Assembly (NCBI GenBank): GCA_964650005.1 | Contig: CAZYPZ010000023.1 | Span: forward strand, 6,288 to 70,287 | Reading direction: 5' to 3' | DNA length: 64,000 nucleotides | Source of the DNA: an uncultured bacterium | Lineage (GTDB): Bacteria; Armatimonadota; HRBIN16 | Shown here: positions 290-32,375 of the stretch, piece after piece | Layout: each line of letters begins with the position of its first letter | Position numbering within the stretch: the stretch's first letter is position 1 | The notes under the pieces: model-generated | What the model was told of the DNA's origin: nothing | The model's database searches: none | The model's input: only the letters and a program-made list of their open reading frames with translations | Made by a program: the position numbers and the translations under genes

Positions 290-303
290 TCCCGTCTCCT
301 TCC

Positions 304-6220: not shown

Positions 6221-6979
6221 TTAGTAACCGGTTCCGGTGCGGCCGTCGCAGTCCGCGAGGCTCCAGAAGCGGTAGTCGGTGACCATGCTCTCGGTGGTGC
6301 GGAACTTCGCATGACCATCGCAGTAGGCCACATTCATACCGTCGCCGTGACGGGGATAGGCGGCCTCACCCAGCACGCCGATCAGCACCGTCTTGCCGCC
6401 GGTGCGGTCGATGTTGTTCCACCCCGGATCGGGGAACCAGTGGTTCCACCAGCAGTTGCTGTTCTCGATGATCATCGAGGATTGCGTTGGGTACTGCATG
6501 ATCGACTCAGTGACAGGATAGCTGGTCTTGGCCCACTCCCAGCCAGCGACGCCGGCGGTCTGAAGGGTACCCTCGGGCCAGTGCCAACCATGGCACATGT
6601 TCATAGCGTAGCGGGTGCCTTGCAGGCTGCCCGGCCAGTATGTGTTGGGGTCGAGCGGGGTGGTGACGTCAACGCGATTGGGTCCGCCCGGGCACGCGAA
6701 CATGGTGCGGCTCTTGACGTAATTCAGGATCTTGTCGGCCCAGATGATGCGGCCCTTAGGATAGCCGCGGGTGTCATCATAAACCGAAGCGTAGCCGCCG
6801 TCATAATCGTCGGCATACATGGTCATGGCCAGCCCAAGCTGCTTCATATTGGACAGACAGGATGTGGCTTTGGCCTTCTCGCGGGCCTGTGCAAACACAG
6901 GGAACAGGATGGCTGCCAGGATGGCGATAATCGCGATCACTACCAGCAACTCGATGAGCGTAAAGCCGTTGCGTTTCAT
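6221..6979 (-). CDS. Prepilin-type N-terminal cleavage/methylation domain protein with DUF1559 (H-X9-DG) domain
   Basis: N-terminus [36 protein letters not shown] is a class III signal peptide. The C-terminal [13 protein letters not shown] matches the H-X9-DG motif. Confidence 0.85.
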
Positions 6980-7055
6980 CTCGGCTCCTTTCAGGTGATG
7001 CGGTCAATGCGTCCCTTGACGCCGGCGCCTGCTCGAAAGCGCCCAATCTATGCCT

Positions 7056-7124
7056 CAGTATATCGCAGTTCGTTGCGAGTAAACAGTATATCCAGGTCGT
7101 TTTTTTTACGTTTTTTTTCTGATT
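7056..7124. promoter_or_regulatory. Divergent promoter region with 2x CAGTATATC direct repeat (28-bp spacing) and twin T8 tracts
   Basis: CAGTATATC occurs at 7056..7064 and 7084..7092. CGTTTTTTTT occurs twice at 7098..7124. The setting is a roughly 65% GC background. Confidence 0.3.
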
Positions 7125-7212
7125 TGCACAACACTTGGGCCAGAGCACCTTTGGACGAAAGCCTGTGTGTTCCTGGTAAACTGCGTCTATACGTGTGCTG
7201 TGGAGGAGATGC

Positions 7213-8151
7213 ATGATAAGACCGCGGCTGGCGTCATCCAAGCTGTCTGTACATCTCATCGGCGACTATTCCACCGGCGCTCAACGGATCGTTGCTGAGG
7301 GGCCGCGCCTGCTCAAGGCGTTCACCATGGAGACGAAAGGTTTGGTGCGCGACCGCGCCCAAATGCACGCTTTGACGGATTACAAAAGCCGGTGGCCGGA
7401 TGGGGTGACGGTCCTGCGCGTGTATACCACCGGTATCCGCTTCGAAAGAACAGACGATCCGGTACAGGCGGCCCGAACCTACTGGACGGAAGGCATGGGA
7501 CCATTTCTGGCCGGTTGCGGCGCGCGTGAGCGGCGACTGGTGGATTATCTCGAAGGTCCCAACGAAGGCGAGGTCTATCCGGCCTGGGAGTCGGTCGCGA
7601 ACGCACGCTGGTACGCCCGTTTCTGGGTTGAACTGGTAAACCTGATGCACGCCGATGGATGGCGTGCGTGCGTTGGCAGCATCCCGGTTGGCAACCCGCC
7701 GGGCAATGTGCAGGAAATGGGCGACCGCATCGAGGCGTTTGCCCCCGCGTTGCGCTATGCAGCGCGGCGAGGTGGAAGCTGGAGCTATCACAGCTACACA
7801 CTGGATTACACTACCGACGTGGGCGGCGAGATGTGGACTTCGTTACGTTACAGGTTCCTGTTGCGGCGACTGCGCGCGAACTGGCCGGATGTGTGGCGCA
7901 TGCCGTTGTTGCTGACAGAGGCCGGAGTCGACCGCCAGGGCGATCGCGAGCACGATGGCTGGCAGGCGCGTGGCGATGCCAAGCGATTTACGGACTGGCT
8001 GAGTTGGTATGACCAACGACTGCAGGAAGACACGCAGGTGGTGGGCGCCACACTGTTCCAGATCGGAGACAGCTGGTGGTCGTCCTTCAACGTGGAGCCC
8101 ATTGCCGAATGGCTGGCGGAGCATCTGCGCCGTTCACGCCGGACCGATTGA
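7213..8151 (+). CDS. Glycoside hydrolase, clan GH-A (GH5-like) TIM-barrel candidate
   Basis: LEGPNEGE (NEP acid/base-like) and LLLTEAG (nucleophile-like) motifs. The start was moved to the ATG at 7213, which lies behind GGAGGAG; the track start at 7195 is GTG. Confidence 0.5.
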   Translation: MIRPRLASSKLSVHLIGDYSTGAQRIVAEGPRLLKAFTMETKGLVRDRAQMHALTDYKSRWPDGVTVLRVYTTGIRFERTDDPVQAARTYWTEGMGPFLAGCGARERRLVDYLEGPNEGEVYPAWESVANARWYARFWVELVNLMHADGWRACVGSIPVGNPPGNVQEMGDRIEAFAPALRYAARRGGSWSYHSYTLDYTTDVGGEMWTSLRYRFLLRRLRANWPDVWRMPLLLTEAGVDRQGDREHDGWQARGDAKRFTDWLSWYDQRLQEDTQVVGATLFQIGDSWWSSFNVEPIAEWLAEHLRRSRRTD

Positions 8152-8156
8152 CCTGC

Positions 8157-9032
8157 CTAAAGCGCGTGTGATCGGCGTAAGCCGGTGCGGTCGATCGACA
8201 CAATGTGCGTCGCGCCGTGATCCAGCAAGTACTGGCGCGCTTGGTCGATATACAGGCCGACGTGATCGGGATGATGGCTGTCGTCTCCGAAACAGAGCGG
8301 TATGCCCAGCTCGATTGCGCGTGTGACCAAATGCGGAGCGGGGTATGGGTGCCCGAATCCCAGCCGGTATCCGGCCAGGTTGATGTCCAATATCGCCCCG
8401 GCGCGGCGTATCACCTGCAGCGTGTCCTCTGCCGCCTGAAGTATTCTGTCGGAATCGACATCGCCGTGAAGTCGTCCGATCTTGCGGATCAGGTCGAGGT
8501 GTCCCACCACGTCCGGCTTCACCGCCTCCACCACTTCAGACAGTGTGCGATAATACGCCACTGCGAGTGACGTCAATCCGCCGCATCGCCGCACCGCCTC
8601 GTCGAACTCTTCCGGCTCCCCATCGATGCTGACCTCGGCCACATAGTGGGCAGATCCCACCACATAGTCCAGTGGGTACTCTTTCCGATACGCCCGTGCC
8701 GTATCCAGCCAAGAGTCATCGGGCACATTGTCTGTCTCCATACCGGCTAGAAACACCATGCCGCCATCCTGATTCTCTTGAACTTCCCGCGCGGTGCGCA
8801 TGAACCGATCGAAACCGTCGATCAATGTTTGCACGCTCCAGCCCAGCTCGCGCTCCCTGCGGTACAGAAAGCGCGCGTCCATGCGAGGCATATGCTCGGA
8901 ACAGCCATATACGACAAACCCGCGGTCACACGCTATATGTACGCGTTCCGTCAGCGTGCCTTGCGCGTGGTCGCACCAGGGCGCACAGTGCCCGCCATGC
9001 AGCGACACGCGCCACGACTCAGGCATGCTCAT
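8157..9032 (-). CDS. hisK: Histidinol-phosphatase, PHP family
   Basis: PHP-domain metal-binding pattern (HGGHCAPWCDHA...). The ATG overlaps the nadB TGA in an ATGA arrangement. Confidence 0.7.
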   Translation of the reverse strand: MSMPESWRVSLHGGHCAPWCDHAQGTLTERVHIACDRGFVVYGCSEHMPRMDARFLYRRERELGWSVQTLIDGFDRFMRTAREVQENQDGGMVFLAGMETDNVPDDSWLDTARAYRKEYPLDYVVGSAHYVAEVSIDGEPEEFDEAVRRCGGLTSLAVAYYRTLSEVVEAVKPDVVGHLDLIRKIGRLHGDVDSDRILQAAEDTLQVIRRAGAILDINLAGYRLGFGHPYPAPHLVTRAIELGIPLCFGDDSHHPDHVGLYIDQARQYLLDHGATHIVSIDRTGLRRSHAL

Positions 9033-10588
9033 GCTCTTGGGTCCAGCACGGTGTCATGCAGGGAGTTGACATCGTCGCGGTCGGGGTACTCCACCACGGT
9101 GTGCAGCCCGCGGCTTTCTTTACGTTGCAGCGCGCAACGCACCATCAGACTGGCCACCAGCGCCACATTGCGCTCTTCCGCCAGGTCGGGATGGGGCAGC
9201 GATCGCTGCGCTCGCTCAGCCGCTTCCGCATGCAGTTCGTCCAGTTCGCCGGATGCGGCGCTCAGCTCAGGCATCGATCGCACGATGCCCACCCGATGCC
9301 GCATCACTTCATGTACACGCCGGCGGATGCTGCCGTCGGTGAACGGCGGCTCGGCGCCCATCTCCGGCGGTGTGAACGTGGTGGGCATGGGGGATATCGA
9401 CCCCAAAGTGTCCTGTGCGGCGCGGTAAGAGAACACCAGCGCCTCCAGCAGGCTGTTGCTGGCCAGACGGTTGGCGCCGTGTACACCGGTACAGGTCACC
9501 TCTCCAGCGGCGTACAAACCCTCGACAGTGGTGCGACCGAGCAGGTCGACCTGCACGCCGCCGCACATGTAGTGCGCTGCAGGAAGCACCGGGATGCGGT
9601 CTTTGGCCAGGTCGTACCCGACTTCCGACAGCCGGGCGGAGATGCCCGGGAAGCGTCGATGCAGGAACTCGGCAGGTTTGTGCGTGATGTCCAGATAGAC
9701 GTGAGGGATCCCCAGCCGGCGGCACTCCGCATCGATGGCCCGCGCGACGATATCCCGCGGCGCGAGATCCTTCAGCGGGTGATAGCCCTCCATAAACGCG
9801 GTTCCATCGGGCAGACGCAGGATGGCGCCTTCGCCGCGCACCGCCTCGGAGATCAGAAAACTGCGCGCCTTGGGATGGTACAGCGTAGTCGGATGGAACT
9901 GCATGAACTCCAGGTTGGCGACACAGGCGCCGGCTCGCCAGGCCATGGCGATCCCGTCGCCCGTGGCGATCGGAGGGTTGGTGGTGTGCGGGTATATCTG
10001 CCCCACACCGCCGGTGGCGAGCAGTGTGGTGCGCGCCAGGTAGATCTCGAGGACCTGTGCGCGCGCATCCCATGCGGCGGCGCCTACGCATCGTCCGTCG
10101 TTCATCAGAAGGTCCAGGGCGAACAGGTGTTCCAGTACCTCCACATTGGGGTCATCGCGCACCTGCTCCAGCAACACACGCTCGATCTCCCAGCCGGTGC
10201 GGTCAGCATAATGCACGATCCGGTTGCGCGAGTGTCCACCTTCGCGTCCCAGTTCCAACTCCCCGTCGGTATGGTGAATGGTGTCAAAGTGAGCGCCCAT
10301 GCGCATCAGACGTTCGATTTGGGCAGGTCCCTCGCGCACCAGCACATCGACGGCATCCTGATGACACAGTCCCGCTCCAGCAACCAGCGTGTCCTGAATG
10401 TGCAGCTCCACGTCATCGTCCGGGGCGATCACCGCCGCAACCCCGCCCTGCGCATAGTTGGTGTTGGATTCACCTCGCTCTTTCTTGGTGATGACCGTGA
10501 CACGGCCCGCTTTGGATACCAGCGAGGCGTAGGACAGGCCGGCGACGCCGCTGCCAATGACCAGAAAATCCGTGAGATGCACATGCAT
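9029..10588 (-). CDS. nadB: L-aspartate oxidase
   Basis: FAD-binding N-terminus FLVIGSGVAGLSYA, RGEGA, and a roughly 520-aa length. The start was chosen at MHVHLTDFLVIG (10588) rather than the track start at 10630. Confidence 0.85.
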   Translation of the reverse strand: MHVHLTDFLVIGSGVAGLSYASLVSKAGRVTVITKKERGESNTNYAQGGVAAVIAPDDDVELHIQDTLVAGAGLCHQDAVDVLVREGPAQIERLMRMGAHFDTIHHTDGELELGREGGHSRNRIVHYADRTGWEIERVLLEQVRDDPNVEVLEHLFALDLLMNDGRCVGAAAWDARAQVLEIYLARTTLLATGGVGQIYPHTTNPPIATGDGIAMAWRAGACVANLEFMQFHPTTLYHPKARSFLISEAVRGEGAILRLPDGTAFMEGYHPLKDLAPRDIVARAIDAECRRLGIPHVYLDITHKPAEFLHRRFPGISARLSEVGYDLAKDRIPVLPAAHYMCGGVQVDLLGRTTVEGLYAAGEVTCTGVHGANRLASNSLLEALVFSYRAAQDTLGSISPMPTTFTPPEMGAEPPFTDGSIRRRVHEVMRHRVGIVRSMPELSAASGELDELHAEAAERAQRSLPHPDLAEERNVALVASLMVRCALQRKESRGLHTVVEYPDRDDVNSLHDTVLDPRA

Positions 10589-10690
10589 GGTGTACGATCG
10601 CCCCCCAGATGATCTCTGCTGATTACACATTGTAACCCATGGCAGCCTGACGTCGACTGCGGGGCACTGCCTGGCAGTTCAAGCAGGAGT

Positions 10691-10719
10691 CTATCAACGA
10701 TCTGTTGAAACTGTTGAAA
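10691..10719. promoter_or_regulatory. Candidate operator: near-palindrome TCAACGATCTGTTGA followed by tandem CTGTTGAAA x2
   Basis: Located in the 156-bp divergent region between nadB and the 693-aa gene. Confidence 0.3.
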
Positions 10720-10786
10720 CACGAACCATCATGCTTGGCCGTTTTGGTGTGGTGACACTTCAGGACGCCGGAAGGAACACATAACC

Positions 10787-12868
10787 ATGCGTGAACCCGA
10801 TCAGCAACTGGAACGAACCTGTTTTCAGTCTGCGGCTCCGTATGATCCGACGATCCATGTGGTTTCGGATGTGGCGATCGTATACGGGGTGGACGACGGA
10901 CTGCCGGCTCGGATGGCCGGATGGAAGGCCAAGGGATACATCATCCACGTGATGACCGGCGTCTCCTGGGGCAACTATCAGGACTATCTGTATGGGCGGT
11001 TCGATGGCCAGAACCATGAGGACGAGGCTCAGACCGACCGTGACGGCAACCGGATCAGCCATGGCGGCGATGTGTACTACATGTCACCGACGCCTGCGTT
11101 CGGCCGATACCTGGCCTCGCGCATTCGCATCGCCCTCGAGGCGGGGACCGAGGCGATTCATTTGGAGGAACCCGAGTTCTGGATACGGGGCGGATATTCA
11201 CCGGCGTTTCAGCGCGAGTGGCGCAGACGGTACCGCGAAGACTGGCAGCCGCCGCACAGCTCTGCGGACGCCCGATGGCGTTCATCCAAACTGATGTACG
11301 AACTGTACCGCGATGCGCTGCAGACGGTGTTTTCCAGCGTGGTCGAGTACAACAAGCGAACCGGTCGCTCAGTTCGCTGTTACGTGCCGACGCACAGCCT
11401 GCTGAACTATGCCCATTGGCGGATCGTCAGCCCCGAATCCAGTCTGTCCCGCCTGGAGGGGTGCGACGGATATATCGCTCAGGTATGGACCGGCACCGCA
11501 CGCACACCGAATGTATATAAAGGCGTACTGAAAGAACGCACCTTCGAGACGGCGTTTCTAGAGTATGGAGTCATGCAGAACCTGGTGCGCTCCACGGGCC
11601 GACGGGTGTGGTATCTAAACGATCCCGTCGAGGACAATCCGCGTTACGATTGGGAAGACTACCGCGTTAACTGGAGAGGCACGCTGGTCGCCTCGTTGCT
11701 GCAGCCGGAGGTCTGGCGATACGAGACGATGCCATGGCCCGATCGCATATTCCGCGGCAAGTACCCGTCCAAGACAGACCCTTCTGTCAAGGAGCCGATG
11801 CCTGCAGACTACGCCACCGAACTGCAGATTGTGTGTAACGCGTTGAACCACATGAATCAGCGCCCCACCCGATGGGATAGCGGTACCCAGGGCTTCGGTG
11901 TGCTGGTGGCCGACACGCTGATGTTTCAGCGCGACACACCTCATGCAAGCGACCCGCACATGGGGCATGTATACGGCATGGCGATGCCGCTGGTGAAACG
12001 CGGGATGCCCGTCACACCGGTGCAACTGGAAAACGCGCGGCTGCCTGGCTATCTACAGCCCTTCAAGGCGCTGTTCCTGAGTTATGAAGGCCAGAAACCA
12101 CCGGAGCCCGAGCTTCACGCGGCATTGGCCGACTGGGTGCGGAGCGGCGGCGTGCTGGTGGTGTGCGATGATGACACCGATCCATACCTCAACGTGCGTG
12201 AGTGGTGGAACACCGGTTCGATGCATTACGCCACTCCGCGTGAACACCTGTTCGAACAACTGGGTGTCAACAGCTCCCGCGAGGGGTGGACGCATGTCGG
12301 ACGCGGCTATGTCTGCTGGAAGAGTATCTCACCGACAAGTTTCACCCGCAGCGCTGATGGCGATCGGCAGTTTTGCGACCTGGCGCGTGAAGCCGCCGGT
12401 CGTGCCCGTATGTCTTGGCGTGAAACCAACTATCTGATCCTGCGCCGCGGTCGATATGTCGTGGCGGCCGGCGTCGATGAGTCGCCAGCCAACGCATCGA
12501 AGCGCCTGACCGGACGGTTTGTCAACCTGTTTGACCACGCCTTGGCGCTGCAAACACAGTTGACCATCGAGCCGGGAGGACGTTATCTGCTGCTGGACAT
12601 CGACAGGACGCCCTCTCGCGGGGTGAATCTGCTGGCTTCTGCCGGTATCGTGATCCCGATGCGCGCTTCAGCGGGTGCGAAACGCTGGAGGCTGGAGGGA
12701 TGCGCCAATACACTTGGCATCACCCTGTTGAAGGTTGACGCGCGTCCTGTCGTGCTGCTGGACGGTGCGCCGGCAACCGACTGGGATTGGGATGAGCCCA
12801 GCGGGTTGTTGCGGGTGCGCTATCCGAACCGCGCCGAGGGCCATCTGCTAGAGGTTCGCCGTGCTTAG
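10787..12868 (+). CDS. Hypothetical soluble protein (693 aa), possibly glycoside-hydrolase-like TIM barrel
   Basis: Long ORF with good coding periodicity; first gene of a coupled three-gene unit. No motif I can name confidently. Confidence 0.6.
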   Translation: MREPDQQLERTCFQSAAPYDPTIHVVSDVAIVYGVDDGLPARMAGWKAKGYIIHVMTGVSWGNYQDYLYGRFDGQNHEDEAQTDRDGNRISHGGDVYYMSPTPAFGRYLASRIRIALEAGTEAIHLEEPEFWIRGGYSPAFQREWRRRYREDWQPPHSSADARWRSSKLMYELYRDALQTVFSSVVEYNKRTGRSVRCYVPTHSLLNYAHWRIVSPESSLSRLEGCDGYIAQVWTGTARTPNVYKGVLKERTFETAFLEYGVMQNLVRSTGRRVWYLNDPVEDNPRYDWEDYRVNWRGTLVASLLQPEVWRYETMPWPDRIFRGKYPSKTDPSVKEPMPADYATELQIVCNALNHMNQRPTRWDSGTQGFGVLVADTLMFQRDTPHASDPHMGHVYGMAMPLVKRGMPVTPVQLENARLPGYLQPFKALFLSYEGQKPPEPELHAALADWVRSGGVLVVCDDDTDPYLNVREWWNTGSMHYATPREHLFEQLGVNSSREGWTHVGRGYVCWKSISPTSFTRSADGDRQFCDLAREAAGRARMSWRETNYLILRRGRYVVAAGVDESPANASKRLTGRFVNLFDHALALQTQLTIEPGGRYLLLDIDRTPSRGVNLLASAGIVIPMRASAGAKRWRLEGCANTLGITLLKVDARPVVLLDGAPATDWDWDEPSGLLRVRYPNRAEGHLLEVRRA

Positions 12869-14846
12869 CCCGGAAGTGGGAGCCGGATTGCAGGCACCCG
12901 GAGCGCCCCAGCCGGCTGCGCGTCCGCGCTGTCTGGTGTTGGGTGTCTTGGGGTCGTTGATGCTCGTCATCGTCGTCTCGTCGGGAGAACTGATCGCCAA
13001 GAATATCCAGATCGGCATGATGCAGCTTGCTCCGGCAATGGTGGGCATGCTGTTCGCGCTGGTGCTGATGAACGAATCGCTGGGACGGCTGCGGCCGTCC
13101 TGGCGGTTCACACCCACCGAACTGACCTTGGCCTGGCTGCTGATGATGCCCGCACCATACATCGCCTCCCGAGGCCTGATGGAGAAGTGGCTGCCGCTGC
13201 TGGTGGGAGTGAAGTATTTTGGCCCGGCGAATCGGTTCGATCAGCTCTTCTGGCCCTATATCAACGGCATGCTGGTTCCATGGGACCCGTCGGATGCCTC
13301 CGAGTCGATGGTGGTGCGCTGGTTTTATGAAGGCCTGCCCGGCAGGATGGGGGTGCCCTGGCTGGCCTGGCTGACTCCCATCGCTGTCTGGTTGATCCTG
13401 ATCCTGGCGATGCTCTTCGCCTATCTATGCATTGTGGTCATTCTGCGGCGTCACTGGGTGGAGAACGAGAAGCTGCCGTTTCCGTTGGTTCAGCTGCCGT
13501 TGGAACTGCTATTGGAGCCCCGCTCGTTTTTACGCAACCCGGTCATGTGGGGCGGGTTCATCGTCGCATTCGGGCTGTTTACGCTGAACGGATTGTCTCA
13601 ATGGTTCCCTTCGGTTCCTCAAATCCCGGTGCAGTTTCCGCTGAACTCACTGTTCACCACGCGCCCGTATAACGCCATGACCTACTTCGCGGCGTACATC
13701 TCTCCGGCGGCCATCGGGTTCTTCTACCTGATGCCCACCGATCTGCTGCTGAGTTTCTGGCTGTTTTATTTGCTGGCCAAAGGGCAAGAGGTGCTGGCCG
13801 CGATGTACGGCGAAAACGAGGGAGCCGCGCATGCGGCGATGGGCATCCATGTCACGTATCAGGGGCTGGGGGCGTTCGTGGTGATCGCCGTGATGCTGCT
13901 GTACGGGGCGAGGAAACACCTGTCGTTTGTGATGGCGCGTGCGGTGGGGCGCGCCAAGCCTGATGCTGGCGAGGCGCGTGAGATGTTTGGCTATCCGCTG
14001 GCTGTGTGGGGACTGGTGGGAGCGCTTGTGATTGTATACACCTGGTGCGTCAGCTTCGGGATGTCTCCCGGTGTGGTGGTTTGGCAGTTCGGGTTGTTTC
14101 TGTTCGTGCAGGCGTTGGTGCAGATGCGCAACACCGCCGAGGGCGGCATGCTGATTACCGAGGGGTGTGGCACGCCCAGCGATCTGGTCACGCTTGGAGA
14201 CCGGTCGGGGCTGGGCGCCCGCAATCTGACGATGCTGGCGTTCATGGACGGGTTGTATGCCAGAGACACGCGCGGACTGATGCTCACCGGCTATATGGAC
14301 GCTCAAAAAGCGACTGAACAGGCGCGGCTGAACGCCCGTCGCGTGCTGGCCATTCTGGCGGGCGGCACGTTGCTGGCCATCGGTGTGGCGCTGATCGTGC
14401 AGTTGTGGCTGCCGTATCACTATGGCGCCAACAATCTCTATCCTTATGTATATAGCCATGCGAGCATCCAGTTCTTTCGGGAAAACGCCGGTGCGATCAA
14501 TGCGGCAGGAGGCGCTCAGCGATTTGACTCCGGATGGCTCTATATGGCGGCAGGTGCGGTGGTGTGCGGGCTGCTGAGCTATCTGCGCCTCAATCTTCCC
14601 GGGTTTCCTCTGCATCCATTGGGCTATGCGATGTGCGCCACTTGGGGTGTGGTGGTGTTCTGGGCATCGATGTTGATCGCCTGGCTGATCAAGGTGCCTT
14701 TGGTCCATTACGGCGGCATGAAGACGTTCCGTCTGCTGCGCCCGTTCTTTTTGGGGCTGGTGTTCGGTGAGTTTCTCAGTGCGTGTTGCTGGTCATTGAT
14801 CGCCTGGTTCCTGAAGGCGCCGACCCCCACCTTCCCGTGGCCATGA
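12861..14846 (+). CDS. Large polytopic integral membrane protein (661 aa), function unknown
   Basis: At least 12 predicted TM helices, Trp/Phe rich. The GTG start overlaps the upstream stop (GTGCTTAG). Confidence 0.7.
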   Translation: MLSPEVGAGLQAPGAPQPAARPRCLVLGVLGSLMLVIVVSSGELIAKNIQIGMMQLAPAMVGMLFALVLMNESLGRLRPSWRFTPTELTLAWLLMMPAPYIASRGLMEKWLPLLVGVKYFGPANRFDQLFWPYINGMLVPWDPSDASESMVVRWFYEGLPGRMGVPWLAWLTPIAVWLILILAMLFAYLCIVVILRRHWVENEKLPFPLVQLPLELLLEPRSFLRNPVMWGGFIVAFGLFTLNGLSQWFPSVPQIPVQFPLNSLFTTRPYNAMTYFAAYISPAAIGFFYLMPTDLLLSFWLFYLLAKGQEVLAAMYGENEGAAHAAMGIHVTYQGLGAFVVIAVMLLYGARKHLSFVMARAVGRAKPDAGEAREMFGYPLAVWGLVGALVIVYTWCVSFGMSPGVVVWQFGLFLFVQALVQMRNTAEGGMLITEGCGTPSDLVTLGDRSGLGARNLTMLAFMDGLYARDTRGLMLTGYMDAQKATEQARLNARRVLAILAGGTLLAIGVALIVQLWLPYHYGANNLYPYVYSHASIQFFRENAGAINAAGGAQRFDSGWLYMAAGAVVCGLLSYLRLNLPGFPLHPLGYAMCATWGVVVFWASMLIAWLIKVPLVHYGGMKTFRLLRPFFLGLVFGEFLSACCWSLIAWFLKAPTPTFPWP

Positions 14847-14850
14847 TCCG

Positions 14851-16917
14851 TTGCAGGAGGACTCGTTGATACATAAAACCGGTCCACGTTTGATCTCTGT
14901 CTGGCGTTCCGATGGGTTCTGGTGCGCGCTGCTGGGAGTGGCGGCCACTGGGATCTACTGGCACCATGCCGCGCCGGGACTGATGTTTCACGACAGCGGC
15001 GAGTTCGCTCTGCTGGCTGCCTGCGGAGGTGTGGGCCACCCGCCGGGAGCGCCGACCTATGCATTGCTGGCCTGGGCTTGGCGTCATCTGCTGTTCTGGT
15101 TGGACCCGGTGTATACGGCCAATCTCTTTTCAGGACTGTTTGGCGGCGTCACTGTCGCGTTGGGTGCATTGCTGAGTACGCGATGGTGCCGACACGTTGT
15201 CTCGGATCCGCCGCTGTGGCAGGTGCGGTTGGCAGCGGGCGTGGCAGCCATTGCAATACTGGGTGTCCGGGCTCAGTGCGAAGTTGCCGGGTATGCGGAG
15301 CAATATACGTTGATGACCGCTGGGTGGTTGGCTGTGCTACTGTTGTGTCCGTGGCAAACGGTGGACAGCCCGTTCAGGCGATGTCTTTTGGCGGGGCTGG
15401 TGTTGGGGCTTGCCGCAGGCAATCATCCCAGCCAGATCGTGTTGATCCCAGCATTGTTGCTGGCGGGCTGGTGGGCTGCGGAGTCCTGGAGATCCCGCCT
15501 CCAAGCCTGGGGCGGGGGCCTGTTGGGCACACTGATCGGTGTTCAAGTCTACTGGTGGGTGTATTTTAGAGCTCAACAGCAGCCGGCGCTAAACTGGTGG
15601 AATGCCAGTACGCCGGAGCGTTTCCTCAGTGCGCTTATGCGTAAGCAGTGGGCGACGCGTCCGATGTCCGAAGCGCCGGGCGATATGATCAGGCTATGGT
15701 TTGAGAGTTATGATTGGGTGAACCAGGTAGGAATCGTGGTATTGGTACTCGGTTTGACCGGCCTGATGATTGGACTGATGCGCCGCTGCAGGCCAGCTCT
15801 GTTACTGACGCTGACCGCGGTTCCATATTCCATGGGGATGTTGTATGGGCATCTCGTGCAGGCAACACTGGGCAACATCACAATCGTCAGTTACGGGGTA
15901 GGTGATTGGCATACCATCCCGTTCCTGACGCTAGCGGTGGCCGCTCCCGTCGCAGTGTCGCTGACGTTCACTTCGCGCTGGAGACGTCAAGCCATGTTCC
16001 TTGCTGTCGTCTGCATAGGCACGATCACTTTGCGGAGTTTCATCGTTGTCGGACAAGAGTCAATGCGTGGTAACAAGGACTACGATCAGATGCGCAGCCG
16101 GTTCTCCTTGAGCGGGCAACCGACGATGCGGTTGTTACTCATCGACAGCTTTGTCATGGGTGAAGGGTATGTGGCATGGCGGCCCGGCGGCTCGCGGGAT
16201 GCCGTCAATCTTGTCATGTCGATCAGCGACCATGTGCGACGAACGAAAAGCAGGCGCATGACTCTTTCGGATCTGTTGAGCGAGCAGGCGAAGAGCGATG
16301 AACTGATGTATCCCAACGCGCGATCGGTATTGCGGCAAGCGCATGGCACGGTACATACCGACGCGTCCGTCTCTTGGGACGATCACCTATATATGGAACC
16401 GGTGGGCGTGATGTTTCGTATTCGCGAGACTCCGCTCACACGAACGGAAATCCGGGATCATGCGGATCAGTGGATGCAGGTGACGCAACGCGCCCTTATG
16501 ACGCGTCCCGACCATCCCGTTCATCGCATGACTGCGGAGTGTTGGTCCAAAGTGTGGTCAGCGCATGGAGCCTACTATACGCGGTTGAACCTGTGTCCGC
16601 AGGCCGCACGCTGTTTTGAGGAAGCGATCCGATGGCAGCCCAATGTCGATATCTACTGGCGGCAATTGGGAGGGGTGTTGATGCAAGGCGGCCGATTACA
16701 ATCCGCTCGTAAGGCGTTGATGCAGGCACTTCAGTTGACGCCGCGCACAACGGGTGTGAGGCGCCAGCTGATGCTGCTGGCCATGAAAGAGGGGCGGCCG
16801 GATGAAGCCCGTGTTTGGATGAATGAAGAACTCGCCTTGACACCCAAGGGTCAACGAACCGCGGCACGCAGAGAGATGGAACGGATCCTGGCTGACGCTG
16901 CGTCGGGACCCAAATAG
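14851..16917 (+). CDS. DUF2723/TMEM260-like GT-C-fold membrane glycosyltransferase with C-terminal TPR repeats
   Basis: N-terminal HDSGEF motif within a polytopic membrane region. The C-terminal roughly 150 aa are TPR-like. TTG start; an alternative TTG at 14866 sits behind GCAGGAGGA. Confidence 0.65.
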   Translation: MQEDSLIHKTGPRLISVWRSDGFWCALLGVAATGIYWHHAAPGLMFHDSGEFALLAACGGVGHPPGAPTYALLAWAWRHLLFWLDPVYTANLFSGLFGGVTVALGALLSTRWCRHVVSDPPLWQVRLAAGVAAIAILGVRAQCEVAGYAEQYTLMTAGWLAVLLLCPWQTVDSPFRRCLLAGLVLGLAAGNHPSQIVLIPALLLAGWWAAESWRSRLQAWGGGLLGTLIGVQVYWWVYFRAQQQPALNWWNASTPERFLSALMRKQWATRPMSEAPGDMIRLWFESYDWVNQVGIVVLVLGLTGLMIGLMRRCRPALLLTLTAVPYSMGMLYGHLVQATLGNITIVSYGVGDWHTIPFLTLAVAAPVAVSLTFTSRWRRQAMFLAVVCIGTITLRSFIVVGQESMRGNKDYDQMRSRFSLSGQPTMRLLLIDSFVMGEGYVAWRPGGSRDAVNLVMSISDHVRRTKSRRMTLSDLLSEQAKSDELMYPNARSVLRQAHGTVHTDASVSWDDHLYMEPVGVMFRIRETPLTRTEIRDHADQWMQVTQRALMTRPDHPVHRMTAECWSKVWSAHGAYYTRLNLCPQAARCFEEAIRWQPNVDIYWRQLGGVLMQGGRLQSARKALMQALQLTPRTTGVRRQLMLLAMKEGRPDEARVWMNEELALTPKGQRTAARREMERILADAASGPK

Positions 16918-17009: not shown

Positions 17010-19616
17010 TTACAGCTGGCGTTTCCATTCCGCCAGTTTGAGCAGCGCCTCCACCGGACTGAGCGTATCGATATCCAGTTGTTCCAGCTCGTCCAGTATG
17101 GGGTGACGTTCCAGGTCGAACAGCGTGAGCTGGACGGTTTTTCGCGAGACTTTCACATCGGATCGCGGTTCCGTCTCCGTACGTCCCAACGCACCTCGCT
17201 GTCCGGATTTCTCCAGATCCCGCAGCACTTCTGCGGCGCGAGCAACCATTTCAGGGGGCGCTCCCGCCATGCGGGCCACCTGGATGCCGTAACTGCGGTC
17301 GGTACCGCCGGGCAGGATCTTGTGCAGCCAGATAATCCGGTCACCCTGCTCGCGCACCGTCACCCGGTAGTTGCGTACGGTGGGCGCCTGACTCGCCAGT
17401 TCGTTCAGATAGTGATAGTGTGTGGCGAACAGCGTCTTGCAGCCCACGGCGTTCAGATACTCGGCAACAGACCAGGCGATCGCCAGACCGTCGTAGGTGC
17501 TGGTGCCGCGCCCGATTTCGTCCAGAATCACCAGGCTGCGTTCGGTGGCATGATTGAGGATCTCCGCGGTCTCGGTCATCTCCACCATGAACGTCGATTG
17601 ACCGGTGGCCAACTCGTCATGAGCGCCGACGCGCGTGAAGATGCGGTCCACCAACGGGATGTCCGCGCGCGTGGCGGGTACGAAGCTGCCGATGTGCGCC
17701 ATCAACACGATCAGCGCAGTCTGACGCAGGTAGGTACTCTTGCCGGCCATGTTGGGGCCGGTCAGGATGATCATGCGCTGCGACTCATCCAGCACCACGT
17801 CATTGGGTACGAACGGTGTGGAACTCAGCCGTTCGATGACGGGATGGCGGCCTGCGTCGATCCGCAGCGCATACCCTTCATGCACCTTGGGTCGCACCCA
17901 TCCATAACGTGCAGCGCACTCCGCGAAAGCGCAGATTACGTCGACCTCGGCTAACGCGCGTGCGGCGGCTGTGATCGGATCGGCGTATGTGGTCAACTGC
18001 GAACGCAACTGTTGGAACAGGTCCTGCTCCAACACCGCCGCGCGCTCCTCCGCGCCGGAGATCCGCGCCTCCATCTCTTTCAGTTCCGGAGTGATATAGC
18101 GCTCCGCGTTCGCTGTGGTCTGTTTGCGGATGTAATGATCCGGCACCCGACTCAGGTGTGTCTTGGTGACCTCCAGGTAGTAGCCGAATACGGCGTTGTA
18201 CCCGACTTTGAGTGAGGGAATGCCGGTGGCCTCCCGCTGTTCGGCCTCGAGCGCGGCTATCCATTGGCGCCCCTCGCGCTGGGCGCGTCGAATCTCGTCC
18301 AATTCGGGATGGTAGCCATCGCGGATGATCCCCGGGTCGCGAATGGTGGCGGGTGGTTCATCCGCCAAAGCGCGCGACAGCAGCGCCTCGGGTTCCGGGG
18401 TGATCTGGAGCGCAGCGCACAGACGGGCGATCGGTCCGTTCCCGAAGGCTGTCAGCTCTTGGACGAACTGAGGCAACTCGCGCAGCGAGTCCCGCAATGC
18501 GGCCAGATCGCGCGGTGTGGCGACACCCGTTGCCACCCGGCTGAACAGCCGCTCGATGTCCCCCAGGCGCGACAGCCGCTGACGCGCCGCATCGCGTGCG
18601 ATGGCGTCTCCCAGCGCCTGGGCAACCCCGTCCAGCCGTTCATCGATCGCGTCGACCTCCTGAAGCGGCTCCAGCAACCGGCGACGGAGCAGCCGGGCGC
18701 CCATCGGCGAGCGGGTCAGGTCCAGTACGTCCGCCAGCGTGCCCCGCCGCGAGCCATCGCTCAGCGATCGGGTCAACTCGAGGTTGCGCCGGGCGGTGTT
18801 GTCGAGATTCATAAACCGGTCCACCGAGTAGGTGGACAGCGTGCGGATATGATCCAGCGCCGTGACATGGCTGCGGCGCAGATAACGCAGTACCGTTGCG
18901 GCCGCATCCAGTCCGGCGCTGAACTCCTCACAGCCGTACCCCCGCAGCGAAGCCACGCCGAAGTGCGTCAGCAGATCCTGGCGGCTGGTCGCACCACGGG
19001 GCAGTTCGTCGCGCGGGATCGGGGTGATGGTCGCGCTGGTCGCCTCTTCCAGCGCACGCAGCAGCTCTTCCGCGTCATCGGGAACCAGGCATTCGGCCGG
19101 GCTGAGACGCTGAATCTCCTGAACCAGCCTGAGCAGAGATGTCTGACCGGGGATCTCCGTGGTGAGAAACTCACCGGTGGTGACATCCACTACACCCAAT
19201 CCGGCCAGATCGGTACCGGCAATGGCCGCCACCAGGTAGTTGTTGGCGGAGCTGTCCAGCATGGAGTCTTCCAGCACGGTGCCGGGGGTCAGTACGCGGG
19301 TCACGCGCCGCTTCACCAGCCCCTTCGCCTGTCGCGGATCCTCCACCTGATCGCACAACGCCACCTTGAAGCCCTTAGCCAGCAGCCTTGCGGCATAGCG
19401 CTCGATGGCATGGAACGGCACGCCGGCCATCGGAATGCGGCCGTTCGGTCCATCCTCACGCCCGGTGAGGGTGATCTCCAGTTCGCAGGCGGCGGTCTCC
19501 GCGTCTTCTCCATACAGTTCGAAGAAGTCACCCACGCGCATGAAAAGCAATACTCCCGGATTCTCTTCACGGGTTCGGAAATACTGCTGAAGCATGGGTG
19601 TATGGGCTTTGAACAC
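17010..19616 (-). CDS. mutS: DNA mismatch repair protein MutS
   Basis: N-terminus TPMLQQYFRTREENPGVLLFMRVGDFFELYGEDAE, a Walker A motif and an 868-aa length. Confidence 0.95.
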   Translation of the reverse strand: MFKAHTPMLQQYFRTREENPGVLLFMRVGDFFELYGEDAETAACELEITLTGREDGPNGRIPMAGVPFHAIERYAARLLAKGFKVALCDQVEDPRQAKGLVKRRVTRVLTPGTVLEDSMLDSSANNYLVAAIAGTDLAGLGVVDVTTGEFLTTEIPGQTSLLRLVQEIQRLSPAECLVPDDAEELLRALEEATSATITPIPRDELPRGATSRQDLLTHFGVASLRGYGCEEFSAGLDAAATVLRYLRRSHVTALDHIRTLSTYSVDRFMNLDNTARRNLELTRSLSDGSRRGTLADVLDLTRSPMGARLLRRRLLEPLQEVDAIDERLDGVAQALGDAIARDAARQRLSRLGDIERLFSRVATGVATPRDLAALRDSLRELPQFVQELTAFGNGPIARLCAALQITPEPEALLSRALADEPPATIRDPGIIRDGYHPELDEIRRAQREGRQWIAALEAEQREATGIPSLKVGYNAVFGYYLEVTKTHLSRVPDHYIRKQTTANAERYITPELKEMEARISGAEERAAVLEQDLFQQLRSQLTTYADPITAAARALAEVDVICAFAECAARYGWVRPKVHEGYALRIDAGRHPVIERLSSTPFVPNDVVLDESQRMIILTGPNMAGKSTYLRQTALIVLMAHIGSFVPATRADIPLVDRIFTRVGAHDELATGQSTFMVEMTETAEILNHATERSLVILDEIGRGTSTYDGLAIAWSVAEYLNAVGCKTLFATHYHYLNELASQAPTVRNYRVTVREQGDRIIWLHKILPGGTDRSYGIQVARMAGAPPEMVARAAEVLRDLEKSGQRGALGRTETEPRSDVKVSRKTVQLTLFDLERHPILDELEQLDIDTLSPVEALLKLAEWKRQL

Positions 19617-20080
19617 GCGTCATCCCCCCTCCGGTGTGGTCCTATACCAGTTTACATAAGCCTTCCGGATCACCGCCGATGATGGCGTTGTCGACTCCTG
19701 GCGAGGCCGCGCATGGGGTGTTGATTCGGAACGACAGCAGTACGGATTCGTTAATCTGGATCGAGCGCCTGTGTGCGGGAGGGGCGTCGTCTGGCACACT
19801 AATTGATTTCAAATATGCGGCAGGTCAGAGCGCACCATTGATGTACAACGGCATTAAATCGATGTGCCGTGGCTTACAGGAAAATCCGGCCAAAATGTTG
19901 GCAAATCGCCGGTTCTTCAAGGCCGTGACCCTTGACAAACGGTGCGTTCCCTGTTCCATAGTATAGGTGAGGTCAGAAGGACGTCACTCACGGATCGGGA
20001 TGTCCAGGGTGCCCAGTGGTCACCAGTCCGGTCTGGCCCATCCGTCCTTACCAACATCAAGGATAGAGGAGGCTACACAC

Positions 20081-20437
20081 ATGTCACGCACAATGCGTCT
20101 CTCGATCCGCGCGTTCACGCTGGTCGAAATCATGATCGTCGTGCTGGTGATCGGCATCCTGCTGGCGATCGCGATCCCCAACTTCAACAAGGCCCGCGAG
20201 AATTCGCAGACCAAAGCCTGTATCGCCAACCTGAAGCAGATCGCTTCGGCCAAGGAGCAGTGGGCGATCGACAACAAGAAGGGCGCTACCGATACTCCCA
20301 CCGCGGATGACCTTTACGGCAGTGGTAAGTACATTCAGAACACTCCGCAGTGTCCAACCAGTGGAACCTATACGATTGGGAACATGAGCACCGCGCCCAC
20401 CTGTTCGGCCGCCGGGCACTCGCTCGCTACGCCCTAG
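20081..20437 (+). CDS. Type IV pilin / GspG-like pseudopilin (118 aa)
   Basis: GGAGG RBS then ATG at 20081. AFTLVEIMIVVLVIGILLAIAIPNF class III signal peptide. Four Cys residues. Start corrected from the track's 19967. Confidence 0.85.
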   Translation: MSRTMRLSIRAFTLVEIMIVVLVIGILLAIAIPNFNKARENSQTKACIANLKQIASAKEQWAIDNKKGATDTPTADDLYGSGKYIQNTPQCPTSGTYTIGNMSTAPTCSAAGHSLATP

Positions 20438-20529
20438 CGCAGTACCATTTACGATCTTTGTACTTTGTGCAGAGCGGCCTGATTTCAGGCCGCTCTCATC
20501 GCCTTCAATCTGAACACGGAGGCACGCCG

Positions 20530-20964
20530 ATGAACGGCAGAGGGTTTACGGTCGCTGAATTGATGCTGACCGTCGGTCTGCTGGGCGTGCTGGTGTTGGC
20601 TTACGCGGCCCTGATGCCGGCAGGAATCCGCACCGGCGCTCATGCCAGCCGGCGGCAAGTCGCCACCGAGATCGCGCAGAGCGTGCTGGAACGCACCCGG
20701 CTGGCCGGGTACAACAACATGACGTACGAGGGACTACGGCAATACGGTCTGATCGCCGATGTTCCGCAAACATCTCCCTTCACCCTGTCCACCGCCGGTC
20801 CTGCCACGCTTAACCCTTCGTTAGTGCTTCCTCAGGGGTCGGGAACCATCCAAGTCGAGGATGTCAGTTTCGATGTTCGCCGTGTCACCGTGACCATCCG
20901 CTGGCGGGACCCGAACAGCCCGGCGCGGTCGGTGGTGATGGCGACGTTGGTGACGAACGAATGA
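20530..20964 (+). CDS. Prepilin-type N-terminal cleavage/methylation domain protein (minor pilin, 144 aa)
   Basis: GGAGG RBS, then MNGRGFTVAELMLTVGLLGVL. Start corrected to 20530. Confidence 0.8.
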   Translation: MNGRGFTVAELMLTVGLLGVLVLAYAALMPAGIRTGAHASRRQVATEIAQSVLERTRLAGYNNMTYEGLRQYGLIADVPQTSPFTLSTAGPATLNPSLVLPQGSGTIQVEDVSFDVRRVTVTIRWRDPNSPARSVVMATLVTNE

Positions 20965-21530
20965 ACGCCGTACGCTCTCTACATATCCGACGCAGACGGC
21001 TGGGGTTGACCATGGTGGAGCTGCTGATCGCCGTGGGGATCACCATCGGGATCGCGTTTGGCGCTATGACTCTGTTCAGCAGCGCCTCGCAGTTGCTGGT
21101 GCGCGGTTCCACCGATGTGGACAACGACACCGCACTGGCGCTGGCGATGGCGCGCATCTCCACAGAGATCCGATCCGCGATCCTGATTCAGGTCAACGAC
21201 ACGGGCACAACGCTCACCTATTGGGTGCCGGTGCTGGATTCGAACGGTGTGCCGGTGATCCCGATGCAGATGTCGCCTACCGCACGCAGTTTTCAGGTGA
21301 GCAATGGACGGTTGATCTGGTCACAGCGACCGAACACACCGCTGCTGACCGGGCTGGTATCGACCGATCCTGAGACGGGACAGACCGTGAGGCCTTTTGT
21401 GAATCCATTTGGTGACGCCGCGATGCGCTGTGTGGACGTCAACCTGGTGATGCGGGTGGTTCCTGCCGTGGGCCCGGCGCGGGTTGCCCGGCTGCATGGC
21501 TCGTACATGCCCAGAAACCAGGCGGACTGA
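20961..21530 (+). CDS. Prepilin-type minor pilin (189 aa)
   Basis: LGLTMVELLIAVGITIGIAF hydrophobic N-terminus with the conserved Glu. ATGA overlap with the upstream gene. Confidence 0.7.
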   Translation: MNAVRSLHIRRRRLGLTMVELLIAVGITIGIAFGAMTLFSSASQLLVRGSTDVDNDTALALAMARISTEIRSAILIQVNDTGTTLTYWVPVLDSNGVPVIPMQMSPTARSFQVSNGRLIWSQRPNTPLLTGLVSTDPETGQTVRPFVNPFGDAAMRCVDVNLVMRVVPAVGPARVARLHGSYMPRNQAD

Positions 21531-21544
21531 GAGGAGGCTGCGCC

Positions 21545-23904: not shown

Positions 23905-24004
23905 TGGCGCTTCGGTTTTGGGTATGGCGTCATTACGCCCTCACACCGTACAATGTCACCGGGACGCGGTCGCCTGATCCGCGTCAGACGGGAGTGATGG
24001 CGCG

Positions 24005-25189: not shown

Positions 25190-25190
25190 C

Positions 25191-29323: not shown

Positions 29324-29332
29324 CAGGTTTAC

Positions 29333-31093: not shown

Positions 31094-31144
31094 GAACCGC
31101 CCGCACGGGAACATTACCGTTACACCGAATGGGAGTCCGTCGCC

Positions 31145-32359: not shown

Positions 32360-32375
32360 CAGGAGCTGATATCCC

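What the first reader, a model, noticed from the sequence alone, without database searches (positions are those of the whole stretch)
10787..16917. Uncharacterised three-gene membrane module: soluble TIM-barrel-like protein, 661-aa polytopic membrane protein, DUF2723/GT-C-TPR protein
Three large genes (693, 661 and 688 aa) are translationally coupled: a GTGCTTAG overlap, then a 4-nt gap. They are divergently transcribed from nadB, with a repeat-bearing control region.

The last protein has the HDSGEF-type motif of TMEM260/DUF2723 GT-C-fold glycosyltransferases plus C-terminal TPR repeats. That architecture is used by protein O-mannosyltransferase-like enzymes. The middle protein is a Trp-rich polytopic membrane protein of unknown family. 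The first is a soluble protein with a possible GH-like barrel.

Together this looks like a dedicated glycan or protein-glycosylation assembly system with no characterised homolog I can name.
Basis: partly seen in the sequence, partly recalled or inferred. Interest (0 to 1): 0.55.

Follow-up and report, generated by a model that had tools for sequence, protein, structure and literature searches.

The report
Lineage-specific glycosidase–transporter–glycosyltransferase operon
Three tightly packed genes encode a sugar-cleaving enzyme of an unclassified family, a membrane transporter and a membrane sugar-transferase; these genes sit together only in this organism, so this is a local operon and not a conserved glycosylation machine.

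Summary
The three ORFs, their coupling and the divergent nadB are real. The proposed "dedicated glycosylation assembly system" fails its own refutation test, because the genes are not co-conserved.

- **Gene A (693 aa):** it matches no Pfam or NCBIfam family. Its model has the three-domain fold of GH42 β-galactosidases and the GH164 β-mannosidase. It belongs to a very large, highly conserved, mostly verrucomicrobial family whose other members carry a signal peptide and stand alone. The window copy has no signal peptide.
- **Gene B (661 aa):** it is not family-less. It is DUF6785+DUF6784, and its only significant structural match is barley Yellow Stripe 1, a proton-coupled transporter of the OPT family.
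- **Gene C (683 aa, start TTG 14866):** it is a divergent TMEM260/DUF2723-type GT-C enzyme with the donor-site Asp and His and a C-terminal TPR.

Co-occurrence was checked in three sets. Of 85 loci with B relatives, one has A within 10 kb and none has C. None of 85 loci with A relatives has B or C. None of 3 loci with C relatives has A or B.

Best reading: a lineage-specific operon in which B imports a glycoside that cytoplasmic A hydrolyses, while C glycosylates envelope proteins independently. Interest is modest. A may represent an unclassified glycoside hydrolase family.

The parts
10631..10786 (+). nadB-A intergenic region. It holds the tandem CTGTTGAAA x2 (10702-10719), a promoter-like site (10705-10732), a GGAAGGA Shine-Dalgarno (10770-10776) and a 17-codon upstream ORF (10731-10784).
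   Evidence: Sequence read. Repeats. The promoter-like site is no more frequent than in shuffles. No Rfam family matched. All regulatory roles are inferred only.
10787..12868 (+). Gene A: a 693-aa soluble protein without a signal peptide. The model has a TIM barrel (about aa 20-355) with a helical insert after strand 4, an alpha/beta 'trimerisation-type' domain (about aa 360-540) and a beta-sandwich (about aa 548-693). This is the GH42/GH164 architecture.
   Evidence: ORF. No Pfam or NCBIfam family matched, apart from a weak DUF4350 hit at aa 402-464. AlphaFold model has pLDDT 78 and pTM 0.84. Top Foldseek PDB hits are GH42 4uzs (E 1e-10) and GH164 6t7g (E 2e-8). More than 7,498 homologs were found, the best at about 60% identity. 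An in-frame stop lies at 10715 with no start codon before 10787, and there is no hydrophobic segment.
11165..11176 (+). Codons for E127-E128-P129-E130 (motif HLEEPEFW) at the C-terminal end of predicted barrel strand 4. This is the candidate acid/base site of A.
   Evidence: The residues are invariant in 35 homologs. The strand position comes from the model. The motif was also conserved enough to serve as a search pattern. Assignment as the catalytic residue is inferred by analogy with clan GH-A (PMC7105311).
12861..14846 (+). Gene B: a 661-aa polytopic membrane protein, DUF6785 + DUF6784, with an OPT/Yellow-Stripe-like transporter fold. Its GTG start overlaps the stop of A by 8 nt.
   Evidence: Pfam DUF6785 1e-134 and DUF6784 6e-29. 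Model has pLDDT 88 and pTM 0.89. The only significant PDB fold matches are 7wsr and 7wst, HvYS1 (E 4e-9, TM 0.64/0.70). The overlap and Shine-Dalgarno were read.
14855..14861 (+). Shine-Dalgarno GCAGGAGGAC (core AGGAGG) serving the TTG start of C at 14866.
   Evidence: Sequence read. The public gene call uses the same start (P0245, 683 aa, 100% coverage).
14866..16917 (+). Gene C: a 683-aa TMEM260/DUF2723-type GT-C glycosyltransferase. It has a membrane core (about aa 1-400), a soluble middle domain (about aa 405-555, with invariant D427) and C-terminal TPRs (about aa 556-665).
   Evidence: PF11028 1.8e-14 plus TPR families. phmmer aligns it to human TMEM260 9rql, with D43=D52 and H58=H67. The nearest relatives are only 31-37% identical.

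Best explanation
This is a lineage-specific operon assembled from three genes that are inherited and used independently elsewhere.

**A** is a cytoplasmic glycosidase, probably trimeric and retaining, of an unclassified family with the GH42/GH164 three-domain fold. **B** is a secondary transporter with the OPT/Yellow-Stripe fold (DUF6785/DUF6784), probably proton-coupled. **C** is a polyprenyl-phosphate-sugar-dependent GT-C glycosyltransferase of the TMEM260/DUF2723 type. Its periplasmic TPR domain would recruit an acceptor, most likely an envelope protein.

Proposed working: B imports a glycoside or short oligosaccharide. A has lost the signal peptide that its relatives carry, so it cleaves that substrate inside the cell. 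C acts separately on the outer face of the inner membrane and shares only the transcript with A and B.

Shown: the folds, family assignments, motif conservation, gene coupling and lack of co-conservation. Inferred: enzymatic activity of A, transport direction and substrate of B, the A-B functional link, and the donor and acceptor of C.
For: **Gene coupling**
- A and B overlap by 8 nt, and a 19-nt B-C gap carries a strong Shine-Dalgarno.
- A second assembly shows the same junctions.

**A**
- The full-length model matches GH42 and GH164 enzymes.
- It has the helical insert after strand 4 described for both families (PMC7105311).
- The acidic residues HLEEPE are invariant at the end of strand 4, and D279/E282/D283 are invariant after the strand assigned as 7.
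- Immediate neighbours of A relatives have no recurrent partner. Carbohydrate-active enzymes are the most frequent (3keto-disac_hyd, SASA, GH127, GH43).

**Signal peptide**
- Nearly all of the 34 listed and 80 metagenomic homologs show a hydrophobic signal-like N-terminus before the conserved DPxQxLERTCFQ.
- The window protein starts MREPDQQLERTCFQ, with an in-frame stop upstream.

**A-B link**
- The only other signal-peptide-less A relative seen (L079, Capsulimonadaceae) lies within 8 kb of a B relative. That locus also has a GH92 mannosidase and a LacI-family regulator directly after B.

**B**
- Its only significant fold match is HvYS1, a proton-driven symporter (PMC9691689).

**C**
- It matches PF11028 and aligns to TMEM260 with both donor-site residues conserved. 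It shares the GT-C + soluble domain + TPR order.

**Independence of the three genes:**
Against: - The A-B functional link rests on adjacency in one lineage plus one loosely linked locus that was found through B, so there is ascertainment bias.
- 84 of 85 loci with B relatives have no A nearby.
- Characterised OPT-family transporters carry peptides, glutathione or metal chelates, not sugars (my own knowledge).
- No sequence-level link ties A to any glycoside hydrolase family, or B to Pfam OPT.
- The catalytic residues of A were placed from predicted secondary structure only. The strongly conserved segment aa 59-97 is modelled with low confidence.
- C could be functionally tied to A and B in this organism in a way that comparative genomics cannot show.
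Confidence: 0.5

Rival explanations
1. One reading: the three proteins cooperate as a dedicated glycan or protein-glycosylation system. C would transfer sugar to proteins or glycans in the periplasm. B would move a lipid-linked or soluble precursor across the membrane. A would trim or remodel the glycan.
For: The genes are tightly coupled on one strand. All three have a plausible carbohydrate connection. There is a loose 'mannose' theme: the fold of A matches a GH164 beta-mannosidase, a GH92 mannosidase sits in the L079 locus, and the characterised relative of C is an O-mannosyltransferase.
Against: There is no co-conservation in 85 + 85 + 3 loci. A is cytoplasmic here, while C acts in the periplasm. 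Relatives of A are secreted, stand-alone and sit among catabolic enzymes. B has the fold of an importer and symporter. C has no relative above about 37% identity, whereas A and B have many at about 60%, so their histories differ.
Confidence: 0.1
2. Purely positional operon: the three genes share a transcript and have no functional relation. B transports peptides or metal chelates like characterised OPT/YSL proteins. A is a cytoplasmic hydrolase, or an inactive relic that lost its export signal. C is a housekeeping envelope glycosyltransferase.
For: Every gene occurs alone in other genomes with highly variable neighbours: 101 Pfam families among 48 neighbours of B, and 145 among 103 neighbours of A. 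Characterised members of the OPT fold do not carry sugars (my own knowledge; PMC9691689). The operon sits between housekeeping genes nadB and mutS.
Against: The A-B start/stop overlap suggests co-translation. Loss of the signal peptide coincides with arrival next to a transporter, and with B nearby in L079. The window's A keeps the positions that are invariant across the 35-sequence family alignment, so it is unlikely to be a relic.
Confidence: 0.3
3. A is not a hydrolase. It would be a carbohydrate-binding or scaffolding protein, or a transglycosylase or phosphorylase, that merely keeps the GH42-like fold.
For: No glycoside hydrolase HMM or PDB sequence matches. The usual clan GH-A Asn-Glu pair is Glu-Glu here. 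The Foldseek TM-score is only about 0.45 over the full length.
Against: Conservation of acidic and aromatic residues in the barrel is very strong, with about 200 invariant columns among 35 sequences. Relatives of A are secreted and sit among carbohydrate-degrading genes. All top structural matches are hydrolases.
Confidence: 0.1

Closest known systems
GH42 beta-galactosidases (e.g. PDB 4uzs, 4oif, 3tts) and the GH164 beta-mannosidase Bs164 (PDB 6t7g, 6t5o), clan GH-A
   Same: Similar length of about 650-700 aa. The same three-domain order: (beta/alpha)8 barrel with a helical insert after strand 4, an alpha/beta trimerisation-type domain, and a C-terminal beta-sandwich (PMC7105311). Invariant glutamates sit at the end of strand 4.
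   Different: There is no detectable sequence similarity: no Pfam GH42 models and no PDB hit with either the sequence or the profile. An E-E pair replaces the N-E of clan GH-A. The window copy lacks a signal peptide. Activity and substrate are unknown.
Barley Yellow Stripe 1 (HvYS1, PDB 7wsr/7wst), OPT (oligopeptide transporter) superfamily
   Same: The overall fold of the whole polytopic protein matches (Foldseek E 4e-9, TM 0.64/0.70 over about 690 columns), and it is the only significant PDB match. HvYS1 is a proton-driven symporter.
   Different: Identity is 14-17%. The Pfam OPT model and PDB profile searches give no hit. B belongs to the Pfam families DUF6785/DUF6784, found mainly in Armatimonadota and Poribacteria. 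Its substrate is unknown.
Human TMEM260 protein O-mannosyltransferase (PDB 9rql) / Pfam PF11028 (DUF2723)
   Same: C matches PF11028. In the alignment, C's D43 and H58 correspond to the donor-site residues D52 and H67. The domain order is the same: GT-C membrane core, soluble domain, then C-terminal TPR.
   Different: Only about 75 residues align at the sequence level (E 7e-4). C is bacterial, so the donor would be a bacterial polyprenyl-phosphate sugar, not dolichol-P-mannose. The acceptor is unknown. The equivalence of invariant D427 to the catalytic base D441 is only positional. The nearest relative anywhere is 33-37% identical.
Transporter plus cytoplasmic glycosidase pairs such as lacY-lacZ (established knowledge, my own)
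   Same: A secondary transporter gene sits next to a gene for a signal-peptide-less glycosidase-fold protein, co-transcribed.
   Different: The transporter fold is OPT-like, not MFS. The gene order is enzyme first. No regulator is adjacent in the window. The pairing is not conserved in other genomes.

Membership tests
   Of 85 loci with B relatives, one has A within 10 kb and none has C. None of 85 loci with A relatives has B or C. None of 3 loci with C relatives has A or B.
GH42 (Pfam Glyco_hydro_42, 42M, 42C) | Sequence match to the family models | tested here: not met
   hmmscan of A and of 34 homologs at E up to 1 returns no GH42 model.
GH42 / GH164 architecture | Barrel + trimerisation-type alpha/beta domain + beta-sandwich, with a helical insert after strand 4 | tested here: met
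   Model secondary structure. Foldseek full-length matches have probability 1.00 and E 1e-10 to 1e-7. The family architecture is described in PMC7105311.
GH164 | Sequence similarity to Bs164 and its relatives | tested here: not met
   phmmer and a profile hmmsearch against all PDB sequences, which include Bs164, give no hit.
Clan GH-A | Acid/base Glu on strand 4 and nucleophile Glu on strand 7 | tested here: inconclusive
   Invariant E127/E128 follow predicted strand 4. Invariant D279/E282 follow the strand assigned as 7. No coordinates were available to check the geometry.
CAZy families without Pfam models (e.g. GH165 and later) | Match to dbCAN/CAZy family models | not testable with these tools
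   No CAZy or dbCAN library is available. The literature search for GH165 gave no usable sequence.
DUF6785 / DUF6784 (Pfam PF20581, PF20580) | Match above the gathering score to both models, in order | tested here: met
   450 bits (cut-off 25) and 100.5 bits (cut-off 26.4). All 36 aligned homologs match both models.
OPT superfamily (Pfam OPT; TC 2.A.67) | Sequence match to the OPT model | tested here: not met
   No OPT hit at E up to 10 in any of 36 members. The profile search against PDB sequences found nothing.
OPT superfamily (Pfam OPT; TC 2.A.67) | Shared fold with a solved member | tested here: met
   7wsr/7wst give E 4e-9 and TM 0.64/0.70. The next hit has E 0.08.
TMEM260-like / DUF2723 GT-C glycosyltransferases (PF11028) | Match to PF11028 above the gathering score | tested here: met
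   54.4 bits against a cut-off of 24.2.
TMEM260-like / DUF2723 GT-C glycosyltransferases (PF11028) | Donor-site Asp and His of the first extracytoplasmic loop (human D52, H67) | tested here: met
   In the alignment to 9rql, D43 and H58 sit in register. Both are invariant in 13 subfamily members. Their roles are taken from 10.64898/2026.03.17.711096.
TMEM260-like / DUF2723 GT-C glycosyltransferases (PF11028) | Catalytic base in the soluble Rossmann-like domain (human D441) | tested here: inconclusive
   D427 is invariant at a similar position.
TMEM260-like / DUF2723 GT-C glycosyltransferases (PF11028) | C-terminal TPR acceptor-binding domain | tested here: met
   TPR_2 at 1.4e-8 and further TPR families at aa 576-660.
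Protein O-mannosyltransferase activity | Transfer of mannose from polyprenyl-P-mannose to Ser/Thr | not testable with these tools
   This needs biochemistry or glycoproteomics.

The most novel reading that the evidence does not exclude
Gene A represents a large glycoside hydrolase family that is so far unclassified. It has more than 7,000 detected homologs, is very strongly conserved and has the GH42/GH164 fold. DUF6785/DUF6784 proteins would be the first OPT-fold transporters that import a glycoside and not a peptide or metal chelate. In this lineage the two would have been joined into a new uptake-and-hydrolysis pair after A lost its export signal.
Probability: 0.2. Interest if true: 0.5.

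Novelty: new member of a known kind. Interest (0 to 1): 0.3.

Why it matters
As a claimed new glycosylation machine it does not hold up, which removes a false lead. What remains useful is annotation.

- **A:** this very abundant, highly conserved, mostly verrucomicrobial protein family has no Pfam or NCBIfam model. It can now be described as GH42/GH164-like and is a reasonable candidate for enzymatic characterisation, and possibly for a new CAZy family.
- **B:** DUF6785/DUF6784 can be annotated as OPT/Yellow-Stripe-fold transporters.
- **C:** it adds a divergent bacterial member to the TMEM260 family, whose bacterial functions are untested.

The loss of the signal peptide from A, coinciding with a transporter next door, is a small but testable example of how an extracellular enzyme may be converted to a cytoplasmic pathway.

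Tried and rejected
- Sequence-level assignment of A failed with Pfam, NCBIfam, phmmer against the PDB, and a profile hmmsearch against the PDB. Only a weak DUF4350 hit and marginal hits to the middle domain of archaeal GH35-type enzymes appeared.
- A sequence-level link of B to OPT was not found.
- The literature holds no paper mentioning DUF6785 or DUF6784.
- I looked for a recurrent operon partner of B (48 close same-strand neighbours) and of A (103 flanking neighbours). None emerged.
- No riboswitch or RNA leader lies upstream of A. No intrinsic terminator lies after C.
- The organism could not be named. Cluster look-ups carry no names, and comparison of window proteins with the fetched loci was uninformative. 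The closest relatives of B are Armatimonadota (Chthonomonadia-like, 63%). The best-scoring relatives of A that carry a name are Verrucomicrobiota (about 60%).
- I considered that the contig might be chimeric, since the relatives of A and B come from different phyla. I rejected this because a second assembly spans both junctions and GC content is uniform.

Full report
**Observation.** The window carries three long same-strand ORFs at 10787-12868 (A, 693 aa), 12861-14846 (B, 661 aa) and 14851-16917 (C).
- The stop of A and the GTG start of B overlap in GTGCTTAG, with AGAGG 6 nt upstream.
- For C, the ORF opens at TTG 14851. However, a perfect AGGAGG lies at 14856-14861, followed 5 nt later by TTG 14866. 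The public gene call gives exactly that 683-aa product. The B-C gap is therefore 19 nt.
- The flanks are housekeeping genes. nadB (9029-10630) and a PHP-domain gene lie on the minus strand upstream, and mutS (17010-19616) is convergent downstream.
- The upstream 'repeat-bearing control region' reduces to CTGTTGAAA twice in tandem plus one imperfect 9-nt inverted repeat.
- Promoter-like matches are no more frequent than in shuffles. No Rfam family matches.
- A contig from an independent assembly of a sequencing run (Logan, SRR12976788) is 100% identical to window 11601-15282 and spans both junctions. It may come from the same sample as the window's contig. GC content is flat at about 0.60. The arrangement is therefore real.

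**Gene A.**
- *No sequence-level family.* No Pfam or NCBIfam model matches. The only signal is a sub-threshold DUF4350 hit at aa 402-464, which recurs weakly in 20 of 35 homologs. Sequence and profile searches of the PDB give nothing significant.
- *A very large, conserved family.* 7,498 of the 8,000 scored candidates are homologs. The best 120 are all about 58-62% identical and about 720-730 aa long. The few that carry names are mostly Verrucomicrobiota. A 35-sequence alignment has about 200 invariant columns.
[quoted passage not shown] Foldseek against the PDB returns GH42 beta-galactosidases (4uzs, E 1e-10) and the GH164 beta-mannosidase Bs164 (6t7g) over the full length. It then returns a GH42 exo-carrageenase, and nothing comparable after that. 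This is the architecture described for GH42 and GH164, including the insert after strand 4 and the trimerisation domain (PMC7105311).
- *Candidate catalytic residues.* The invariant motif HLEEPEFW sits at the end of predicted strand 4, and invariant D279/E282/D283 follow the strand I assign as 7. I infer E128 as acid/base and E282 as nucleophile. This rests on predicted secondary structure only.
- *Unexplained.* The usual clan GH-A Asn-Glu pair is Glu-Glu here.

**Signal peptide of A.** Nearly all of the 34 aligned homologs and the 80 metagenomic homologs have a hydrophobic, signal-like N-terminus just before the conserved DPxQxLERTCFQ. The window protein begins MREPDQQLERTCFQ. An in-frame stop lies at 10715 with no start codon in between, and there is no hydrophobic segment. 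It is therefore cytoplasmic, unlike its relatives.

**Gene B.** It is not family-less. It matches Pfam DUF6785 (1e-134) and DUF6784 (6e-29).
- Relatives are mainly in Armatimonadota and Poribacteria. The closest are 61-63% identical, in Chthonomonadia-like genomes.
- The model is confident (pLDDT 88, pTM 0.89).
- Its only significant PDB matches are the two structures of barley Yellow Stripe 1 (7wsr and 7wst, E 4e-9, TM 0.64/0.70). The next hit has E 0.08.
- HvYS1 is an OPT-family proton-driven symporter (PMC9691689).
- No sequence-level link to OPT was detectable, and no paper mentions these DUFs.

**Gene C.** It matches PF11028 (TMEM260-like, formerly DUF2723) and several TPR families.
- phmmer aligns aa 25-99 to human TMEM260 (9rql), placing D43 and H58 on D52 and H67. 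A 2026 preprint shows those two residues to be essential for donor binding. It also describes the architecture as a GT-C core, a luminal Rossmann-like domain and an acceptor-binding TPR (10.64898/2026.03.17.711096).
- C has the same order of parts: hydrophobic to about aa 400, then soluble, then TPR at aa 556-665.
- Within its subfamily, D43, H58, EQYTL, NHPSQ, R259, R265, DWH and D427 are invariant. D427 is a positional candidate for the catalytic base D441 of TMEM260, but this is not demonstrated.
- C is divergent. An exhaustive search of 1.84 billion representatives finds nothing above 37% identity, with 64 representatives at E<=1e-30.

| Starting gene | Loci examined | Result |
|---|---|---|
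| B | 5 neighbourhoods of close homologs + 80 species-representative genome loci, 10-kb flanks | No C relative; one A relative (L079, 8 kb away, opposite strand) |
| A | 5 neighbourhoods + 80 metagenome loci | No B, no C |
| C | 3 neighbourhoods | No A, no B |

Neighbour content gives the same picture.
- The 48 close same-strand neighbours of B fall into 101 Pfam families with no recurrent partner.
- The 103 immediate neighbours of A fall into 145 families. Carbohydrate-active enzymes are the most frequent, but none recurs more than four times.

The three genes are therefore independent units elsewhere, and the operon is specific to this lineage.

**Mechanism proposed.** The parts suggest uptake plus breakdown, not assembly. 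There is a symporter-fold membrane protein translationally coupled to a hydrolase-fold enzyme that has lost its export signal.

The single other signal-peptide-less A relative I saw (L079, Capsulimonadaceae) is also the only one near a B relative. That locus carries a GH92 mannosidase with a malectin domain, and a LacI-family regulator directly after B.

This support is suggestive and weak. L079 was found through B, and both cases lie in the phylum where B occurs.

C most likely works on its own as a polyprenyl-phosphate-sugar-dependent glycosyltransferase acting on periplasmic or envelope proteins, by analogy with TMEM260. I put about 0.5 on this overall picture, 0.3 on a purely positional operon, and 0.1 on the cooperative glycosylation system.

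**Comparison with known systems and novelty.**
- A works like GH42/GH164 enzymes in fold but fails every sequence-membership test available here. Whether CAZy already lists it could not be tested.
- B is a member of DUF6785/DUF6784 and resembles OPT transporters in fold only.
- C is a member of the TMEM260-like family.
- None of this is categorically new. The finding is a new, lineage-specific combination of members of known or recognisable kinds.
- Two annotation gains are worth recording: the fold assignment of a very large unannotated family (A), and that of two DUFs (B).

**Organism.** It could not be named. Look-ups returned no names. The closest relatives of B are Armatimonadota and those of A are Verrucomicrobiota. 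A secretin-containing type IV pilus cluster at 19.6-33.6 kb shows a diderm envelope.

Noticed in passing
window 19634-33587: A complete type IV pilus gene cluster: a PilX_N minor pilin-like gene (21545-23416), PilM, PilN, PilO, a T2SSC-like gene, a secretin (26957-29323), two T2SSE ATPases and a PilC/T2SSF gene. It starts 2.7 kb after gene C, separated by mutS. Pilins are classic O-glycosylation targets, so they are candidate acceptors for C. This is pure speculation.
   Followed up: partly
window 10961-11077 (A residues 59-97): This segment of A (TGVSWGNYQDYLYGRFDG.NHEDEAQTD...HGGDVYYM) is among the most conserved parts of the family, with many invariant columns. Yet it is modelled with pLDDT below 50. 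It may be an active-site or inter-subunit loop that orders only in an oligomer or with a ligand or metal.
   Followed up: no
window 10731-10784: A 17-codon upstream ORF (MLGRFGVVTLQDAGRNT) ends 2 nt before the ATG of A, in another frame. It is read from the sequence. It could be chance or a leader peptide.
   Followed up: no
L079 48-13189 (Capsulimonadaceae MAG, OZ252240.1): A sugar-utilisation-like locus. It holds a signal-peptide-less A relative (48-2276, minus strand), a BSP-peptidase-like protein, a GH92 alpha-mannosidase with a malectin domain, an unannotated 416-aa gene, a B relative (9758-11962) and a LacI-family regulator (12122-13189).
   Followed up: partly
L006, L009, L011, L013 (Armatimonadota / Chthonomonadia): The closest B relatives (61-63% identity) share a syntenic setting. 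In L006 and L009 a GDE-type (glycogen-debranching-like) glycosidase gene lies divergently upstream and a 170-aa unannotated gene convergently downstream. L011 and L013 show ORFs of matching size and orientation, which were not annotated.
   Followed up: partly
L091 5767-10019: Two TMEM260-like paralogs (691 and 672 aa) lie in tandem in a metagenome contig. This shows that the subfamily duplicates locally.
   Followed up: no
L004/L005 10001-13517: In one verrucomicrobial lineage, a signal-peptide-bearing A relative is followed on the same strand by an MFS transporter gene and then by a 1,356-aa WbsX/GH99-like + GDSL protein.
   Followed up: no
window 6311-8151: Two consecutive plus-strand ORFs (301 and 318 aa) upstream of the PHP-nadB pair have no Pfam match.
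   Followed up: no
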